Virus record (IMG/VR): IMGVR_UViG_2778261593_000007
Span: 1 to 6,822 of that record
From: a virus
Lineage: Duplodnaviria; Heunggongvirae; Uroviricota; Caudoviricetes
Length of the DNA stretch: 6,822 nt
Strand: one strand, 5' to 3'
The translations under genes and the position numbers were made by a program. The notes beneath the pieces are model-generated. The model was not told the origin of the DNA. It did not search any database and saw nothing but the letters and a program-made list of their open reading frames with translations. This document shows, one piece after another, positions 1 to 6,602 of this stretch (the stretch's first letter is position 1; each line of letters begins with the position of its first letter).

Positions 1-753
1 CTGAACCACATTATCTGGGCGAAGCCGTCCGGACGCTGGAACGGATGCAACAAGGAAAGCCTGCGGGCGTATTTCCCGGCAACAGAACGCATTCTGTTTG
101 CGGAACATTATCAGGGGCCATACCAGCCCAAAAATGACGGCTATGCGGCAAAGGGGCGCGAGCTAAAACAGCACGTCATGGCCCCGCTGATTTCTTACTT
201 TCGTGATGCGCGTGAATCACTGGGGGTAACATCGAAACAGATAGCGGAAGCCACCGGAAAGAAAAACATGGCGTCACATTGGTTTGGTACCAGTCAGTGG
301 CAGTTGCCGAACGAGGGTGATTACAGAAAACTGCAGGTGTTATTTGCACGTGTAGCGGCAGAAAAGCATCAGCGCGGAGAACTGGAAAAACCACATCACC
401 AGCTGGTCAGCGCATACAGTGAACTGAACCGGCAATATGCCAGTCTGCTGGATGAATACAAATCACTGCGGCGTTATTTTTCCGTATCAGCTGCAGTGCC
501 GTATACGGATGTCTGGACGCACAAGCCCGTGCAGTATTATCCGGGCAAACATCCCTGCGAAAAACCGGCGGATATGTTGCGGCAGATAATAGAGGCCAGC
601 AGTCACCCTGGTGATTTGGTTGCGGATTTCTTTATGGGATCCGGGTCAACAATAAAAGCGGCGATGGCGCTGGGGCGTCGGGTAATCGGCGTTGAGCTTG
701 AAACTGAACGGTTTGAACAGACAGTCGGTGAAATTTCGGCAATGTGCAATTAA
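1..753 (+). CDS. DNA methyltransferase, beta-class N6-adenine/N4-cytosine (N6_N4_Mtase-like); 5' partial, open to window start
   Basis: Frame 1 is open from nt 1 to TAA 751-753, so the first ATG at 178 is internal. C-terminal part has HPCEKPADMLRQII followed by the SAM-binding motif DFFMGSGST, the order seen in beta-class amino-methyltransferases. The catalytic (D/N)PPY motif would lie upstream, outside the window. Confidence 0.8.
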   Translation: MNHIIWAKPSGRWNGCNKESLRAYFPATERILFAEHYQGPYQPKNDGYAAKGRELKQHVMAPLISYFRDARESLGVTSKQIAEATGKKNMASHWFGTSQWQLPNEGDYRKLQVLFARVAAEKHQRGELEKPHHQLVSAYSELNRQYASLLDEYKSLRRYFSVSAAVPYTDVWTHKPVQYYPGKHPCEKPADMLRQIIEASSHPGDLVADFFMGSGSTIKAAMALGRRVIGVELETERFEQTVGEISAMCN

Positions 754-2394: not shown

Positions 2395-2659
2395 CCTTCC
2401 CGGATTACTGAATGTGGCGTTATGCACGGTTATCGTGCTGACGCTCTTTTTTTATCGTCGCCGTGATTCCAGACATAAACCGCTGATGTCATGGCTGGCC
2501 TGGCTGCTGATGTTGCTTTATGGCTTTGTTCCACTCAGCTATCTGTGTGGTCGCCCGTTAGAAACAGACTGGTTCCAGGTGTTTTTTAACCTGCTGTTCT
2601 GCGTGCTGGTGATACGCGCACGCGGGAACGTCACAAAAATCTTTCCATTGTTGAGGTGA
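2384..2659 (+). CDS. Putative holin (91 aa from ATG 2384, about 3 TM segments, charged C-terminus)
   Basis: ATG 2384 with SD GGAGG 2374-2378 (5-nt spacer); overlaps the upstream gene by 11 nt. The ORF track extends it to GTG 2369. Hydrophobic segments LLNVALCTVIVLTLFFY, LMSWLAWLLMLLYGFVPLSYL, WFQVFFNLLFCVLVI, then basic tail RARGNVTKIFPLLR. Stop TGA 2657-2659 lies 2 nt before the endolysin ATG. Confidence 0.55.
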   Translation: MLSNLPGLLNVALCTVIVLTLFFYRRRDSRHKPLMSWLAWLLMLLYGFVPLSYLCGRPLETDWFQVFFNLLFCVLVIRARGNVTKIFPLLR

Positions 2660-2661
2660 AT

Positions 2662-3039
2662 ATGTCGGGTAAATTCAGATTTAGTCGTCGCAGCGAAAAG
2701 AATCTGGAGGGCGTTAAACCACAGCTGGTTGCTGTCGTTCGCCGTGCGCTGGAGCTGACGGAGGTTGATTTCGGTATTACGGAAGGGCTGCGCACGAAAG
2801 AACGCCAGAAACAGCTGGTCGCGGAAGGGAAAAGCCAGACCATGAACAGCCGCCACCTGACCGGTGATGCGGTGGATGTTGTTGCCTGGGTTGGCAGCCA
2901 GGTGTCATGGGACTGGCCTCTGTACGAGAAAATCGCGCAGGCATTTAAGCAGGCTGCCGCAGAGCTGGGAACTGCCATCGAATGGGGCGGGGACTGGAAA
3001 ACACTGAAAGACGGGCCTCACTTTCAGTTGAAACGCTGA
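2662..3039 (+). CDS. Endolysin, peptidase M15 family (L-alanyl-D-glutamate endopeptidase, phage T5 Lys-like)
   Basis: ATG 2662 with SD GAGGTG 2653-2658. N-terminal block SEKNLEGVKPQLVAVVRRALELTEVDFGITEGLRT closely parallels T5 endolysin as recalled. Zinc-ligand motifs SRHLTGDAVD and DGPHFQL are typical of M15/VanY peptidases. GTG 2656 is an alternative start. Confidence 0.85.
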   Translation: MSGKFRFSRRSEKNLEGVKPQLVAVVRRALELTEVDFGITEGLRTKERQKQLVAEGKSQTMNSRHLTGDAVDVVAWVGSQVSWDWPLYEKIAQAFKQAAAELGTAIEWGGDWKTLKDGPHFQLKR

Positions 3040-3483: not shown

Positions 3484-3684
3484 TTAGTTGTCTTTCATAA
3501 ATCCTTTAATGGCCCATCCCACAAGCCTGATGATGCTGTATACCAACAAGGCAGATATCAGGGAAACAAGGATATCAAACAGTGAAAACCCCCGGGTCTC
3601 TGTTGATAAAAGGCCGAAAATGAACACCAGAATAGCTAACAGAATTCCTACCCGGTGAAAGCCTTTAGAAATCGTGTTTTTCAT
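3484..3684 (-). CDS. Small membrane protein (66 aa, two predicted TM helices), moron-like
   Basis: ATG at 3684-3682 with a strong SD GGAGG (revcomp of 3688-3692). Hydrophobic helices GILLAILVFIFGLL and ILVSLISALLVYSIIRLVGWAI. Hand-counted GC about 41%. Opposite orientation to the late operon, in the position lambda uses for bor. Confidence 0.6.
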   Translation of the reverse strand: MKNTISKGFHRVGILLAILVFIFGLLSTETRGFSLFDILVSLISALLVYSIIRLVGWAIKGFMKDN

Positions 3685-3744
3685 TTGTCCTCCGTATTGT
3701 TTTTTTAAAGGGTGGGAATTTTAACATCAGATGAGTGAAGTTCT
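3685..3744. promoter_or_regulatory. Divergent intergenic region, probable promoters for the minus-strand membrane protein gene and the HNH/packaging genes
   Basis: 60-bp AT-rich spacer with a T7 tract (3698-3704). Weak candidate + strand hexamers TTGTTT (3697-3702) and TAACAT (3721-3726) at 18-bp spacing. Not strong. Confidence 0.25.
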
Positions 3745-4095
3745 ATGCCGTCACGAATCCCCCGCGCATGCCGTAAGCGAGGCTGCGCAGGCACAACAAC
3801 AGACAGCTCTGGCTACTGCGATAAACATCGGGGTGAAGGCTGGGTGCAGCACCAGCGCGGACTGAGCCGCCACCAGCGTGGCTATGGCTCAAAATGGACG
3901 GTGATTCGCGCCCGTATACTGAAGCGCGATAAAGGTCTGTGTCAGTTGTGTCTGCGTGTTGGTGTGGTGAGCGAGGCGAAAACTGTCGACCACATCATCC
4001 CGAAAGCGCATGGCGGAACAGACGCAGACAGCAACCTGCAGAGTCTGTGCTGGCCCTGCCATAAAGCGAAAACAGCGCGCGAACGAATCAGGTGA
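3745..4095 (+). CDS. HNH endonuclease, phage packaging-associated (HK97 gp74-like)
   Basis: N-terminal Cys cluster (CRKRGC...YCDKH) and C-terminal HNH motif DHIIPKAHGGTDADSNLQSLCWPCHKAKT. Located immediately upstream of the terminase small subunit, as in HK97-like phages. Confidence 0.85.
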   Translation: MPSRIPRACRKRGCAGTTTDSSGYCDKHRGEGWVQHQRGLSRHQRGYGSKWTVIRARILKRDKGLCQLCLRVGVVSEAKTVDHIIPKAHGGTDADSNLQSLCWPCHKAKTARERIR

Positions 4096-4210
4096 TAATT
4101 ATTCTCACTTGTGGGGAGGGGCGGGTCAAATCCCTGCAACCCTGGCTGTCCGGGACCGCCCGCCCCGTCAAATTTTTACACCCGCGAAATTAAAAATTTC
4201 AGGATTTGAC
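4096..4210. other. Candidate cos / terminase recognition region between HNH and terminase small subunit genes
   Basis: GC-rich inverted repeat GGGGCGGG(4118-4125)/CCCGCCCC(4159-4166), then a perfect 9-bp AT-rich inverted repeat AAATTTTTA(4170-4178)/TAAAAATTT(4191-4199) just before the terminase small subunit SD and ATG 4211. By analogy with HK97, cos lies between the HNH gene and gene 1. Confidence 0.4.
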
Positions 4211-4681
4211 ATGTCAGGAAAATCTGTTGCGCCCGGAAGAGGGAGAAAGCCGAAGCCGACCACCCGTAAGGAGCTGGCAGGCAATCCCGGCAAGCGGGCA
4301 TTAAATAAGTTTGAGCCAAAATTCACGCCGATCACCCATGCTGACCCTCCCGAGTGGTTTGATGAAACCGCTCGCCATATGTGGGATACCATTATTCGTG
4401 AGCTCTGTGCCCAGCGAGTTCTTTATGTTACTGATTTGCATAATGTCGTTGCATTCTGCACTGCTTTTCGCAACTGGCATGAGTCGCAGCAGGAGGTTAT
4501 GCGCGTTGGGATTACGGTAGAGAGTGAGGCGGGGCCAAAGAAAAACCCGGCACTCACGGCGGCAAATGAGGCCGCCAGACAAATGGTGACATTCGGTAGT
4601 TTATTAGGGCTCGATCCTGCCAGTCGGCAGCGGCTTATGACGCCGAAGCAGGGGAGCGATAATCCATTTAAAAACCTATGA
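4211..4681 (+). CDS. Terminase small subunit (P27/HK97 gp1-like family), 156 aa
   Basis: ATG 4211 with SD AGGA 4201-4204. Basic N-terminus with the GNPGKR motif ([24 protein letters not shown]). Stop overlaps the large subunit start as ATGA. The track ORF 4010-4681 is an in-frame read-through of the intergenic region. Confidence 0.8.
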
Positions 4682-6408
4682 CACGAAAAAATTACGTGAA
4701 CGTTAACGCCGCAAATCAGTATGCACGTGACGTGGTTCGCGGAAAAATTCAGGTTTGCCGTTATGTCGTTCTGGCCTGCCAGCGTCACCTTGATGACCTG
4801 GAAAACTCAGCTAAAAAAAACTATCCGTTTAAATTTGATAAGGATAAAGCTGAGCGTGTGGCGAAATTTATCCAGCTTTTGCCACACACCAAAGGGGAGT
4901 GGGCATTTAAACGGATGCCCATTACGCTTGAACCCTGGCAGTTGTTCTGTATTTGTGTTGTGTTTGGGTGGGTGAGAAAAAAGAGCGGCCTGCGTCGATT
5001 TCGCGAGGCTTACAACGAAATACCCCGTAAAAACGGGAAATCAGCAATGTCTGCTGGCGTTGGTCTGTATATGTTTGCCTGCGATGATGAATTTGGCGCT
5101 GAAGTGTATTCCGGGGCCACAACAGAGAAACAGGCGTGGGAAGTTTTTCGTCCAGCCAGACTGATGGCGCAACGCACGGAACCATTGCGTGAAGCATTTG
5201 GTATTGAAGTACATGCTCAAAGCATGAGCCGTCCGGAGGACGGTGCCCGTTTTGAACCGTTGATTGGAGATCCCGGAGACGGCGCGTCGCCGAGTTGCGC
5301 CCTCATTGATGAATATCACGAGCATCAGACCGATGCGCTTTACCAGACGATGCAAACTGGGATGGGGGCACGTCGTCAGCCGCTGATTTTTGGTATCACC
5401 ACTGCGGGCTATAACATTGAAGGACCATGCTACGACAAACGTCGTGAAGTGATCGAAATGCTTGAAGGGATTGTGCCCAATGATGAACTGTTCGGGATTA
5501 TTTATACCATTGACGACGGGGATGACTGGACAGATCCGGCGGTATTGCGTAAAGCGAACCCCAATATGGGGATTTCTGTCTACAGCGATTACCTGTTATC
5601 TCAACAGCGCGCGGCAATTAACAACCCACGAAAAGTGGGCGTATTCAAAACGAAACATCTGAATATCTGGGTGGCAGCAAAAGACGCCTTCTTCAATCTT
5701 GTGAACTGGCAGAAATGTGAAGACAGGAGTCTGACGCTGGAGCGTTTTGAGGGGCATACCTGCATCCTGGCGTTTGACCTTGCGCGAAAGCTGGATTTGA
5801 ACGCGATGGTACGGCTTTTTACCCGAGAGATTGACGGTAAAACGCATTATTATTGTGTCGCACCCAAGTTTTTTGTTCCCTACGACACAATCTACAGCGC
5901 TGATGTGACAGACAGTCGCACAGCAGAACGTTATCAGAAGTGGGTTGAAGGGGGATTTATTACCGTTACCGATGGCGCGGAAATTGATTACCGGGAGATC
6001 CTTGAGTCTGCGAAAGAAGCAAATCGCTTAAACGCAGTGGAGGAGTCACCTATAGATCCCCACGGAGCCACAAACCTTTCTCACCACCTTGCTGATGAAA
6101 ACTTAAACCCTATTACCATCATTCAGAACTACACCAATATGTCGGATCCCATGAAGGAACTTGAGGCGGCTATTGAGGCCGGGCGTTTTCATCATGATGG
6201 TAATCCTGTGATGACATGGTGTATCAGCAACGTGATTGGAAAGCACATTCCCGGCGACGATGATGTTGTTCGTCCGATCAAACAAGGCAACGAAAACAAA
6301 ATCGATGGTGCTGTGGCGCTGATTATGGCGATTGGTCGTTGCATGCTATTTGAGAAAGAAGACACGCTGTCTGACCACATTGAGTCCTACGGGATCCGTT
6401 CGCTTTAA
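4678..6408 (+). CDS. Terminase large subunit (Terminase_1 / HK97-like), 576 aa
   Basis: Walker A-like PRKNGKS, Walker B-like ALIDEYHEH, and a C-terminal nuclease-like region with conserved acidic residues (DGAVALIMA). Start is translationally coupled to the small subunit (ATGA at 4678-4681). Confidence 0.9.
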
Positions 6409-6419
6409 CTGAGGTAATT

Positions 6420-6602
6420 ATGATCATGCTGATTCTCGCGCCTCTGGTGGGCGTGCTGGGTGTGCTTTTGCTGGCGTATGGTGCCTGGCTGATTTATCCC
6501 CCGGCTGGTTTTGTTGTTGCCGGGGCGCTGTGCCTGTTCTGGTCGTGGCTGGTGGCACGATATCTCGACCGTACACGGCAGTCTGTCGGCGGAGGTAAAT
6601 AG
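6420..6602 (+). CDS. Small membrane protein (60 aa, two predicted TM helices) between terminase and portal
   Basis: ATG 6420 with SD GAGG 6411-6414 (5-nt spacer). Translation [60 protein letters not shown]. Host-like GC-rich codons. Stop TAG 6600-6602 overlaps the portal GTG 6602. Confidence 0.5.

What the first reader, a model, noticed from the sequence alone, without database searches (positions are those of the whole stretch)
4096..4210. Candidate cos site with GC-rich and AT-rich inverted repeats between HNH and terminase small subunit
In HK97-like phages the HNH endonuclease gene abuts the cohesive end site and assists terminase in cos cleavage. This 115-bp intergenic region has an 8-bp GC inverted repeat (4118-4125/4159-4166, 33-bp spacer) followed by a perfect 9-bp AT inverted repeat (4170-4178/4191-4199). 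That layout resembles a nicking site plus a terminase or IHF binding and bending site, and would mark the virion genome ends. The reading frame is open through this region, which explains the spurious long ORF in the track.
Basis: partly seen in the sequence, partly recalled or inferred. Interest (0 to 1): 0.45.

Follow-up and report, generated by a model that had tools for sequence, protein, structure and literature searches.

The report
Known phiP27/HK97-type phage cos site
The 115-bp gap between the HNH endonuclease and small-terminase genes is the cohesive-end (cos) site where this phiP27-like E. coli prophage cuts its DNA for packaging; the site is already annotated in phage phiP27, so the finding is correct but ordinary.

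Summary
The long ORF 4010-4681 is an in-frame artefact running into the small-terminase gene (start 4211).

The cos reading is supported. The 115 bp are 100% identical to phage phiP27, whose GenBank record annotates a 10-bp cos-site equal to window 4157-4166 (CGCCCGCCCC). The record ends of phi1026b, phiE125, HK97 and SfI all map to the 4166|4167 junction. Published ends include Burkholderia 5'-CGCCCGCTTC-3' (10-base 3' extension) and SfI TGCCCGCCCC.

The inverted repeats themselves are not the conserved feature:
- Across 25 related cos regions their complementarity decays without compensating changes.
- What is conserved is a G-tract at -56..-43, GAC.GCC at the cut, and an almost invariant block CCCGCGAAATTAAAAATTT (4181-4199).
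- That block follows the small-terminase type. It occupies nearly the same position as the mapped HK97 small-terminase site (+15..+29).

Most likely mechanism: small terminase binds 4181-4199, and large terminase with the HNH protein makes nicks staggered by 10 nt. The 3' polarity is inferred. An IHF site, a terminator and an RNA element are not supported.

Novelty: already known. Interest is low.

The parts
3745..4095 (+). HNH endonuclease gene (116 aa), the accessory nuclease of the packaging module
   Evidence: Pfam HNH, E 1.7e-16. 34% identical to HK97 gp74 over 70 aa, E 2e-10. Best PDB match is the HNH endonuclease 5h0m, E 4.6e-13. Equals phiP27 L34, which RefSeq names an HNH endonuclease.
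4111..4124 (+). Conserved G-tract GTGGGGAGGGGCGG at -56..-43 from the cut. Role unknown.
   Evidence: 8-12 G out of 14 at this fixed distance in all 25 aligned cos regions, HK97 included. It is kept as a G-tract, not as the complement of the overhang.
4125..4133 (+). GTCAAATCC element following the G-tract (-42..-34)
   Evidence: The consensus aAAtc is conserved at 70% or more at -39..-35, and HK97 has ATCAAATCT there. Its pairing with 4202-4210 and its direct-repeat relation to 4167-4173 are not general.
4154..4156 (+). GAC immediately left of the cohesive-end sequence. The inferred bottom-strand nick lies between 4156 and 4157.
   Evidence: GAC at -13..-11 is conserved at 90% or more across the 25 aligned cos regions. 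The nick position is inferred from a 10-nt 3' overhang, as in HK97 and phiE125.
4157..4166 (+). Cohesive-end sequence CGCCCGCCCC (10 nt). The top-strand nick lies between 4166 and 4167.
   Evidence: Annotated as 'cos-site' in phiP27 records AJ298298 and NC_003356 at 21806-21815, in sequence 100% identical to the window. It aligns to the SfI cos TGCCCGCCCC determined by end sequencing and to the phiE125/phi644-2 3' extension CGCCCGCTTC. The right ends of the phi1026b, HK97 and SfI records also align here.
4167..4178 (+). GTC plus T-tract (GTCAAATTTTTA), the first bases of the virion left end.
   Evidence: gTC at +1..+3 and TTTT(T) at +7..+11 are conserved. Positions +4..+6 and +12 vary with no compensating change in 4191-4199.
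4181..4199 (+). CCCGCGAAATTAAAAATTT (+15..+33), the candidate small-terminase recognition site: a GC clamp followed by an A/T tract.
   Evidence: 18-19 of 19 bases are identical in loci whose adjacent small-terminase coding DNA is only 59-80% identical. The block is present in Citrobacter, Aeromonas, Pseudomonas and Burkholderia prophages. Its identity follows the small-terminase type. The HK97 small-terminase minimal site is +15..+29, made of CCCG plus an A-tract. Binding here is inferred and was not tested.
4201..4204 (+). AGGA ribosome-binding site of the small-terminase gene, 6 nt before the ATG
   Evidence: Read directly from the sequence. Relatives have CAGGAG at the same place.
4211..4681 (+). 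Small terminase subunit, P27 family (156 aa)
   Evidence: Pfam Terminase_4, E 4.6e-23. Equals phiP27 L35. The N-terminal arm [19 protein letters not shown] is near-invariant in 48 homologues. The predicted fold's best PDB matches are HK97 small terminase, but weakly.
4678..6408 (+). Large terminase subunit (576 aa), HK97 type
   Evidence: Pfam TerL_ATPase and TerL_nuclease. The only PDB sequence match is HK97 TerL 6z6d, E 1.2e-18, over residues 58-555.

Best explanation
This is the cos site of a phiP27-like, HK97-type temperate phage integrated in E. coli.

Shown by annotation or homology: the cohesive-end sequence is the 10 nt CGCCCGCCCC at 4157-4166, and virion DNA ends at the 4166|4167 junction.

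Inferred steps:
1. During packaging of concatemeric DNA, the P27-family small terminase binds the invariant block CCCGCGAAATTAAAAATTT (4181-4199), 15-33 bp to the right of the cut. The model is the HK97 small-terminase ring, which recognises a GC clamp next to an A-tract at +15..+29.
2. This positions the HK97-type large terminase, assisted by the adjacent HNH endonuclease.
3. The top strand is nicked after 4166 and the bottom strand between 4156 and 4157. The result is 10-nt 3' extensions.
4. The end carrying the terminase genes is packaged first, and the next cos site terminates packaging.

The conserved G-tract/TCAAATC element 35-56 bp to the left (4111-4133) is a second cos sub-site. It travels with the HNH side of the module and its role is unknown.

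The perfect inverted repeats seen in this window are by-products of a G-rich element facing a C-rich overhang and a T-tract facing an A-tract. They are not conserved structural elements.
For: Identity of the site:
- The gap is 100% identical to phiP27, and phiP27 carries a 'cos-site' feature at the bases equal to 4157-4166.
- The SfI cos TGCCCGCCCC, found by sequencing virion DNA ends, matches in 9 of 10 bases.
- Published 10-base 3' extensions of phiE125/phi644-2 read 5'-CGCCCGCTTC-3' on the right. That is the right end of the phi1026b record, and the left end GTCAAATTTTCACGCCCGCGAAATTAAAAATTC aligns to window 4167 onward.
- The HK97 record ends ...GACCGCCGCCAAA | GTTTGAATTT align without gaps at the same junction, with the G-tract at the same distance.

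The proteins match an HK97-type module:
- HNH is 34% identical to gp74.
- The only PDB sequence match of the large terminase is HK97 TerL, E 1.2e-18.
- In HK97, gp74 stimulates terminase cos cleavage and the ends are 10-nt 3' overhangs.

Small-terminase site:
- Positions +15..+33 are 18-19 of 19 identical where the neighbouring coding DNA is 59-80% identical.
- Identity of the right half follows the small-terminase type, and identity of the left half follows the HNH type.
- The HK97 small-terminase minimal site lies at +15..+29 with the same GC-then-A/T grammar.
Against: - I could not read the original phiP27 paper (PMC127862 is not held). I therefore do not know how the annotated cos-site was determined or which polarity was found.
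- The 3' polarity and the exact bottom-strand nick are transferred from HK97 and the Burkholderia phages.
- The +15..+33 block is only 32% identical to HK97 in the same register.
- No binding or cleavage data exist for this phage group in what I could read.
- Whether this particular prophage is inducible is unknown.
Confidence: 0.88

Rival explanations
1. The inverted repeats are the functional units. In this reading the GC repeat forms a cruciform or hairpin, or is a symmetric binding site that defines the nick. The AT repeat would be a symmetric protein-binding or bending site such as IHF, as in the lambda cosN/cosB/I1 layout.
For: Three perfect inverted repeats of at least 8 bp in 115 bp occur in only 3 of 5000 shuffles. 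The arms flank or include the cos 10-mer.
Against: - Across 25 homologous cos regions aligned without gaps, GC-repeat pairing falls to 1-3 of 8 in L026-L029. It is 3-4 of 8 in HK97 and phi1026b, whose ends are experimentally known. There is not one compensating change.
- The right AT arm is invariant while the left arm varies, giving 3-9 of 9 pairs.
- Single-strand folding is not unusual: z -1.7 as RNA and -1.55 as DNA.
- No IHF consensus with one mismatch or fewer lies in 4096-4210.
- The 10-mer is not itself two-fold symmetric.
Confidence: 0.07
2. The region is a transcription signal between the lysis/HNH genes and the terminase genes: an intrinsic terminator, an attenuator, a structured RNA or a promoter.
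For: A GC-rich stem followed by GTCAAATTTTT looks superficially like a terminator. The RNA minimum-free-energy fold pairs 4118-4126 with 4158-4166.
Against: - No terminator-like site was found in 3600-4400, where shuffles give a mean of 1.0.
- The stem encloses a loop of about 33 nt, and the fold z-score is only -1.7.
- There is no Rfam match at E of 1 or less.
- Stem complementarity is not conserved.
- The only promoter-like match is a weak 9-of-12 site on the minus strand, within chance.
Confidence: 0.03
3. The sequence is a relic. On this reading the prophage is defective or packages by a headful mechanism, so the motif no longer marks virion ends in this strain.
For: The window is only 6.8 kb, so the integrity of the rest of the prophage is untested. 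The region upstream of the HNH gene differs from phiP27, because the match starts at 3745.
Against: - The HNH, small-terminase and large-terminase reading frames are all intact and 97-100% similar to phiP27.
- The cos region is base-for-base identical to that of phiP27, whose deposited record annotates a cos-site there.
- The large terminase is HK97-type, which is a cos type.
Confidence: 0.05

Closest known systems
cos-site of Stx2e phage phiP27 (GenBank AJ298298 / NC_003356, misc_feature 21806-21815)
   Same: The 115-bp gap, the 10-mer CGCCCGCCCC and the flanking HNH (L34) and small-terminase (L35) genes are the same sequence. Identity is 100% across the gap and 98.2% over 956 bp.
   Different: The window is another phiP27-like prophage, not phiP27 itself. 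Similarity starts at the HNH start codon (3745), and the DNA upstream differs. The phiP27 record annotates only the 10 bp, with no sub-sites.
HK97 cos with gp74 (HNH), gp1 (small terminase) and gp2 (large terminase)
   Same: - Gene order HNH - cos - TerS - TerL.
- HNH and large terminase are homologous.
- The cos cores align without gaps: G-tract at -56..-43, ATCAAATC, and GACCGCC at the cut.
- The overhang is 10 nt.
- The HK97 small-terminase site at +15..+29 (CCCG plus A-tract) parallels +15..+33 here.
   Different: The small terminase belongs to a different sequence family: Terminase_4/P27 versus gp1, with no BLASTP or Pfam link. The right half of cos is unrelated in sequence (32% in register). 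The HK97 overhang is CGCCGCCAAA.
Burkholderia phages phiE125, phi1026b and phi644-2 cos (10-base 3' extensions, right end 5'-CGCCCGCTTC-3')
   Same: Same P27-family small terminase (56% identity). The right half of cos is the same in 18 of 19 bases at +15..+33. The overhang is 8 of 10 identical, and the distances are the same.
   Different: The host is a betaproteobacterium. The left half is only 57% identical, and the GC inverted repeat is absent (4 of 8 pairs).
Shigella phages SfI, SfV, SfII and SfIV cos (SfI: 10 nt TGCCCGCCCC, by end sequencing)
   Same: The overhang is 9 of 10 identical. The HNH gene and left half of cos are closely related, and the GC repeat is 8 of 8.
   Different: The small terminase is only about 52% identical, and the right half differs (ACCCGCGAAAAATGAAATTTAACC, 79% at +15..+33). 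The AT inverted repeat is lost (3 of 9 pairs).
Phage lambda cos (cosQ-cosN-cosB with IHF site I1; 12-nt 5' overhang)
   Same: The general logic is shared: a nick site flanked on the packaged side by a small-terminase site and on the other side by an upstream element.
   Different: Here there is no HNH-independent gpA/Nu1 terminase, no IHF consensus, the overhang is 10 nt and inferred 3', and the nick site is not two-fold symmetric.

Membership tests
phiP27 cos site (as annotated in AJ298298 / NC_003356) | Sequence identity with the annotated 10-bp cos-site and its intergenic context | tested here: met
   201 bp around the site show one mismatch, which lies in the HNH coding part. The 115-bp gap is 100% identical. 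The feature at 21806-21815 maps to window 4157-4166.
HK97-type HNH-assisted cos packaging module | HNH endonuclease gene directly upstream of cos and the terminase genes | tested here: met
   Pfam HNH, E 1.7e-16. 34% identical to gp74. The gene ends 61 bp before the 10-mer.
HK97-type HNH-assisted cos packaging module | Large terminase homologous to HK97 gp2 | tested here: met
   The only PDB sequence match is 6z6d (HK97 TerL), E 1.2e-18, over residues 58-555. Pfam finds TerL_ATPase and TerL_nuclease.
HK97-type HNH-assisted cos packaging module | Small terminase with the HK97 gp1 fold (ring that threads DNA) | tested here: inconclusive
HK97-type HNH-assisted cos packaging module | cos core homologous to the HK97 cos and located between the HNH and small-terminase genes | tested here: met
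   An ungapped alignment anchored on the record ends shows GAC.GCC at -13..-7, the G-tract at -56..-43 and aAAtc at -39..-35 shared with HK97.
HK97-type HNH-assisted cos packaging module | 10-nt 3'-protruding cohesive ends on virion DNA | not testable with these tools
   The 10-nt length comes from the phiP27 annotation and from SfI. The 3' polarity is known for HK97 and phiE125/phi644-2 and is transferred by homology. No virion DNA data are available for this element.
HK97-type HNH-assisted cos packaging module | Specific small-terminase binding site about 15-30 bp downstream of the cut | not testable with these tools
   Only indirect support: near-invariance of 4181-4199, linkage to small-terminase type, and the same position and grammar as HK97 +15..+29.
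Lambda-type cos (cosN/cosB with IHF) | IHF consensus site (WATCAANNNNTTR) between the nick site and the terminase sites | tested here: not met
   No match with one mismatch or fewer in 4096-4210. The 7 matches in the window lie elsewhere and are at chance level.
Lambda-type cos (cosN/cosB with IHF) | Two-fold symmetric nick site conserved as a symmetry | tested here: not met
   The 10-mer is not palindromic. The flanking GC inverted repeat is not conserved as a complement.
Intrinsic (Rho-independent) terminator | Short GC-rich hairpin with a small loop, followed by a T run | tested here: not met
   0 terminator-like sites in 3600-4400. The GC arms are 33 nt apart.

The most novel reading that the evidence does not exclude
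The evidence does not exclude that P27-family small terminases and the non-coding block CCCGCGAAATTAAAAATT form a recognition pair that is almost frozen across Enterobacterales, Aeromonas, Pseudomonas and Burkholderia phages. The equally invariant, AT-hook-like N-terminal arm GRGRKPKP of the protein would read the A/T tract through the minor groove. A second part of this reading is that the G-tract/TCAAATC element, held at a fixed position 35-56 bp upstream of the cut (-56..-34) and shared with HK97, is a so far undescribed HNH- or large-terminase-side cos sub-site analogous to lambda cosQ. Together these would give a two-module cos, with halves that recombine at the cut, as locus L038 and phi467 suggest.
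Probability: 0.4. Interest if true: 0.35.

Novelty: already known. Interest (0 to 1): 0.15.

Why it matters
The result gives a firm, base-level annotation of the packaging site for a prophage family that NCBI's pipeline leaves unannotated. In 95 of 5426 complete E. coli genomes with a match, no feature is listed there. This helps to define the prophage genome ends, and it removes a spurious 223-aa ORF. The comparative picture offers testable predictions for the HK97 packaging model in a second small-terminase family: a left half linked to HNH, a right half linked to small terminase, and a near-invariant 19-bp block. None of this changes current understanding of cos packaging.

Tried and rejected
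- tRNA-like element. 'GGGTCAAATCCC' resembles a T-arm, but ARAGORN finds nothing in the window and Rfam has no match at E of 1 or less.
- Terminator or promoter. Rejected.
- Stable single-strand structure. The z-scores are only -1.7 and -1.55.
- IHF site. No consensus match in the gap.
- Covariation of the inverted repeats. None was found in 25 relatives.
- Direct repeat GTCAAAT, 42 bp apart, as a general feature. It is 7 of 7 here but only 2-3 of 7 in HK97, phi1026b and the L031 group.
- Original phiP27 paper (PMC127862). Not held in the library, so the method behind the annotated cos-site could not be checked.
- Full-text search for the 10-mers. It returned only unrelated papers, and the one phage hit (PMC6834657) concerns a P2-like att site.
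- Direct BLASTP of the small terminase against HK97 gp1, and phmmer against the PDB. No similarity.
- SfV record ends. They do not sit at the homologous junction, because the record starts 17 bp upstream. SfV was therefore not used as evidence for the termini.

Full report
**What is in the sequence.** The window carries a phage late region.
- A DNA methylase fragment lies at 178-753.
- Candidate holin ORFs lie at about 1852-2659, named by position against phiP27's putative holins.
- An M15 endolysin lies at 2656-3039.
- An HNH endonuclease gene lies at 3745-4095.
- A P27-family (Terminase_4) small-terminase gene lies at 4211-4681.
- An HK97-type large-terminase gene lies at 4678-6408.

Both inverted repeats are exactly where stated: GGGGCGGG 4118-4125 / CCCGCCCC 4159-4166, and AAATTTTTA 4170-4178 / TAAAAATTT 4191-4199. 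There is a third 9-bp pair, GTCAAATCC 4125-4133 / GGATTTGAC 4202-4210. There is also a direct repeat GTCAAAT at 4125 and 4167.

The ORF 4010-4681 starts inside the HNH gene in another frame and continues in frame into the small-terminase gene.

**Is it more than chance?** I made 5000 dinucleotide-preserving shuffles of the 115-mer. An 8-bp perfect inverted repeat appears in 13% of them and a 9-bp one in 4.3%. Three repeats of at least 8 bp appear in only 0.06%. The GC repeat alone is unremarkable, but the combination is not random.

**Identification.** Megablast against phage records finds phiP27, the Stx2e-converting phage, at 98.2% over window 3745-4700. The 115-bp gap is identical base for base. 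Both phiP27 records carry a misc_feature 'cos-site' at 21806-21815. That maps to window 4157-4166, CGCCCGCCCC. I could not read the original paper, so the basis of that annotation rests on the record alone.

**Independent support from relatives with known ends.**
- A sensitive blastn search showed that several linear records begin or end inside the query.
- I joined the right and left record ends of phi1026b and HK97. I then aligned 25 distinct cos regions without gaps on the junction.
- The phi1026b right end ...GGGACCGCCCGCTTC and left end GTCAAATTTTCACGCCCGCGAAATTAAAAATTC... match window ...GGGACCGCCCGCCCC | GTCAAATTTTTACACCCGCGAAATTAAAAATTT.
- The SfI cos was found by sequencing virion DNA ends as a 10-nt gap, TGCCCGCCCC (PMC3636060). 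The SfI record ends at the base homologous to 4166.
- A gap, rather than an overlap, in run-off reads is what 3' overhangs produce. This last point is my inference.
- HK97 ends ...GACCGCCGCCAAA | GTTTGAATTT at the same junction, and its ends are 10-nt 3' overhangs (PMC9410871).

All of these lines place the cut at 4166|4167, with the cohesive sequence at 4157-4166.

**The proteins fit an HK97-type module.**
- The HNH protein is 34% identical to HK97 gp74.
- The only PDB sequence match of the large terminase is HK97 TerL 6z6d, E 1.2e-18.
- In HK97, gp74 binds the large terminase and stimulates cos cleavage (PMC9410871; PMC13595911).
- The small terminase differs. It belongs to Pfam Terminase_4, whereas HK97 gp1 does not, and BLASTP finds nothing between them.
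- An AlphaFold model built from 48 homologues (pLDDT 81) has HK97 small terminase as its best Foldseek PDB matches. The statistics are weak, with E 0.45-1.2 and probability 0.75-0.82.

**What is conserved, and what is not.** The conserved columns in the 25-sequence alignment are:
- a G-tract at -56..-43, with 8-12 G of 14 in every sequence including HK97;
- aAAtc at -39..-35;
- GAC.GCC at -13..-7;
- gTC at +1..+3;
- a T-tract at +7..+11;
- CcCGCGAAAttaaAAATTT at +15..+33.

It drops to 6-7 of 8 in close relatives through uncompensated C-to-T changes in the overhang. It is 1-3 of 8 in L026-L029 and 3-4 of 8 in phi1026b and HK97.

The AT repeat keeps an invariant right arm, while the left arm varies freely (3-9 of 9 pairs). 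No compensating change was seen in either repeat. The inverted repeats are therefore not the selected feature. A G-rich element happens to face a C-rich overhang, and a T-tract faces an A-tract.

Folding as RNA or DNA is not exceptional. There is no terminator-like site, no Rfam family, no tRNA and no IHF consensus in the gap.

**The right half as the small-terminase site.** The block 4181-4199 is 19 of 19 identical in loci whose small-terminase coding DNA is 79-80% identical. It is 18 of 19 identical where coding DNA is only 59-60% identical, as in Burkholderia phi1026b and the L031 group.

A pattern scan of one genome per species found the same grammar in Citrobacter, Aeromonas, two Pseudomonas and Burkholderia anthina. 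Each hit sits about 45 bp upstream of a P27-family small-terminase gene, and one Pseudomonas has the identical overhang CGCCCGCCCC.

Identity of +15..+33 follows small-terminase relatedness:

| Small-terminase group | Identity at +15..+33 |
|---|---|
| P27 clade | 95-100% |
| SfV type | 79% |
| phi467 (24% identical small terminase) | 58% |
| HK97 | 32% |

Identity of -60..-14 instead follows the HNH gene. For example, phi467 has HNH 86% and left half 81%. Locus L038 combines an SfV-like -30..-11 segment with a phiP27-like right half. The two halves therefore recombine at the cut.

In HK97 the minimal small-terminase site was mapped to +15..+29. It consists of CCCG, with a critical G:C at position 21, followed by an A-tract that is read by DNA shape (PMC11331095). 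My count on the HK97 record agrees with the paper's T16 and position 21. The block here has the same grammar at nearly the same distance.

The small-terminase N-terminal arm [19 protein letters not shown] is near-invariant in 48 homologues. It parallels the arginine-bearing N-terminal arm that HK97 small terminase inserts into the minor groove. Binding is an inference. Nothing here tests it.

**Mechanism proposed.** The location and length of the cohesive sequence are shown by annotation and homology. The following steps are inferred:
1. Small terminase binds 4181-4199.
2. The large terminase plus the HNH protein nick after 4166 on the top strand and between 4156 and 4157 on the bottom strand, giving 3' extensions.
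3. Packaging proceeds rightwards into the terminase genes.
4. The G-tract/TCAAATC element (4111-4133) acts as a left-hand sub-site of unknown role.

**Comparison and verdict.** This is the phiP27 cos site, in a phiP27-like prophage. It is present in 95 of 5426 complete E. coli genomes (19 at full length), and NCBI's pipeline annotates nothing there. It belongs to the HK97-type HNH-assisted cos systems. It differs from HK97 in the small-terminase family and in the right half of cos. It is not lambda-like.

The emphasis on inverted repeats and IHF is not supported. The feature is already known, and interest is low.

Noticed in passing
window 3484-3744 versus L001 (phiP27) 3592-4000: Similarity to phiP27 begins exactly at the HNH start codon (3745). 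Upstream, the window has a 66-aa ORF on the minus strand (3484-3684), hydrophobic by eye and without any Pfam match, where phiP27 has L33. This looks like a mosaic boundary at the left edge of the packaging module.
   Followed up: partly
L038 (IMGVR_UViG_2896595138_000008), -30..-11 relative to the cut: This locus has an SfV-like segment (CTGTGACCTGACGTCTTCCGGACT) and overhang TGCCCGCCCC joined to a phiP27-type right half. It looks like a recombinant whose junction lies at or next to the cos cut. phi467 (L010) likewise keeps the phiP27-like left half up to about -12 and then diverges completely.
   Followed up: partly
L031-L037, e.g. L036 1-700: This group has a small terminase 55% identical to the window's. 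It keeps the G-tract, the GAC.GCC cut motif and the invariant right block. However, the ORFs directly upstream (66 and 79 aa in L036) show no similarity to the HNH protein, so the HNH gene may lie elsewhere or be absent in this lineage. The hosts were not identified.
   Followed up: no
window 4211-4310 (small-terminase residues 1-33): The N-terminal arm of the small terminase..[27 protein letters not shown], is near-invariant in 48 homologues. It resembles an AT-hook (RGR-P). The phi1026b orthologue gives a sub-threshold Pfam hit to the H-NS C-terminal DNA-binding domain (E 0.04).
   Followed up: partly
L008 (Pseudomonas phage vB_PaeS-D14E) about 540-640: This phage keeps CCCGCGAAATTAAAAAATCAGGAG before its small-terminase gene. 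The bases at the predicted overhang position are G-rich (GACGGGGGGA) instead of C-rich. Either the cos core is inverted in composition or the register differs in this phage.
   Followed up: no
L013/L014 (SfV NC_003444 record ends): The SfV record is cut between ...GACGTCT and TCCGGACTGCCCGCCCC. That is 17 bp left of the junction homologous to the SfI, HK97 and phi1026b ends, so its deposited ends are not the cohesive ends.
   Followed up: partly
window 178-753: This 191-aa ORF matches only the C-terminal part of the N6_N4 DNA methylase profile (positions 132-219 of 221). It may be a truncated or unusually short phage methyltransferase.
   Followed up: no
window 6420-6602: A 60-aa hydrophobic ORF lies directly after the large-terminase gene. 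By position it corresponds to phiP27 L37, a 'putative integral membrane protein', between the terminase and portal genes. That is an odd location for a membrane protein.
   Followed up: no
PMC9410871, Discussion versus the Figure 1 legend: The Discussion says lambda gives 10-nt 5' overhangs and HK97 gives 12-nt 3' overhangs. The Figure 1 legend, and PMC11331095, say HK97 has 10-nt 3' overhangs. The two numbers in the Discussion appear to be swapped.
   Followed up: yes
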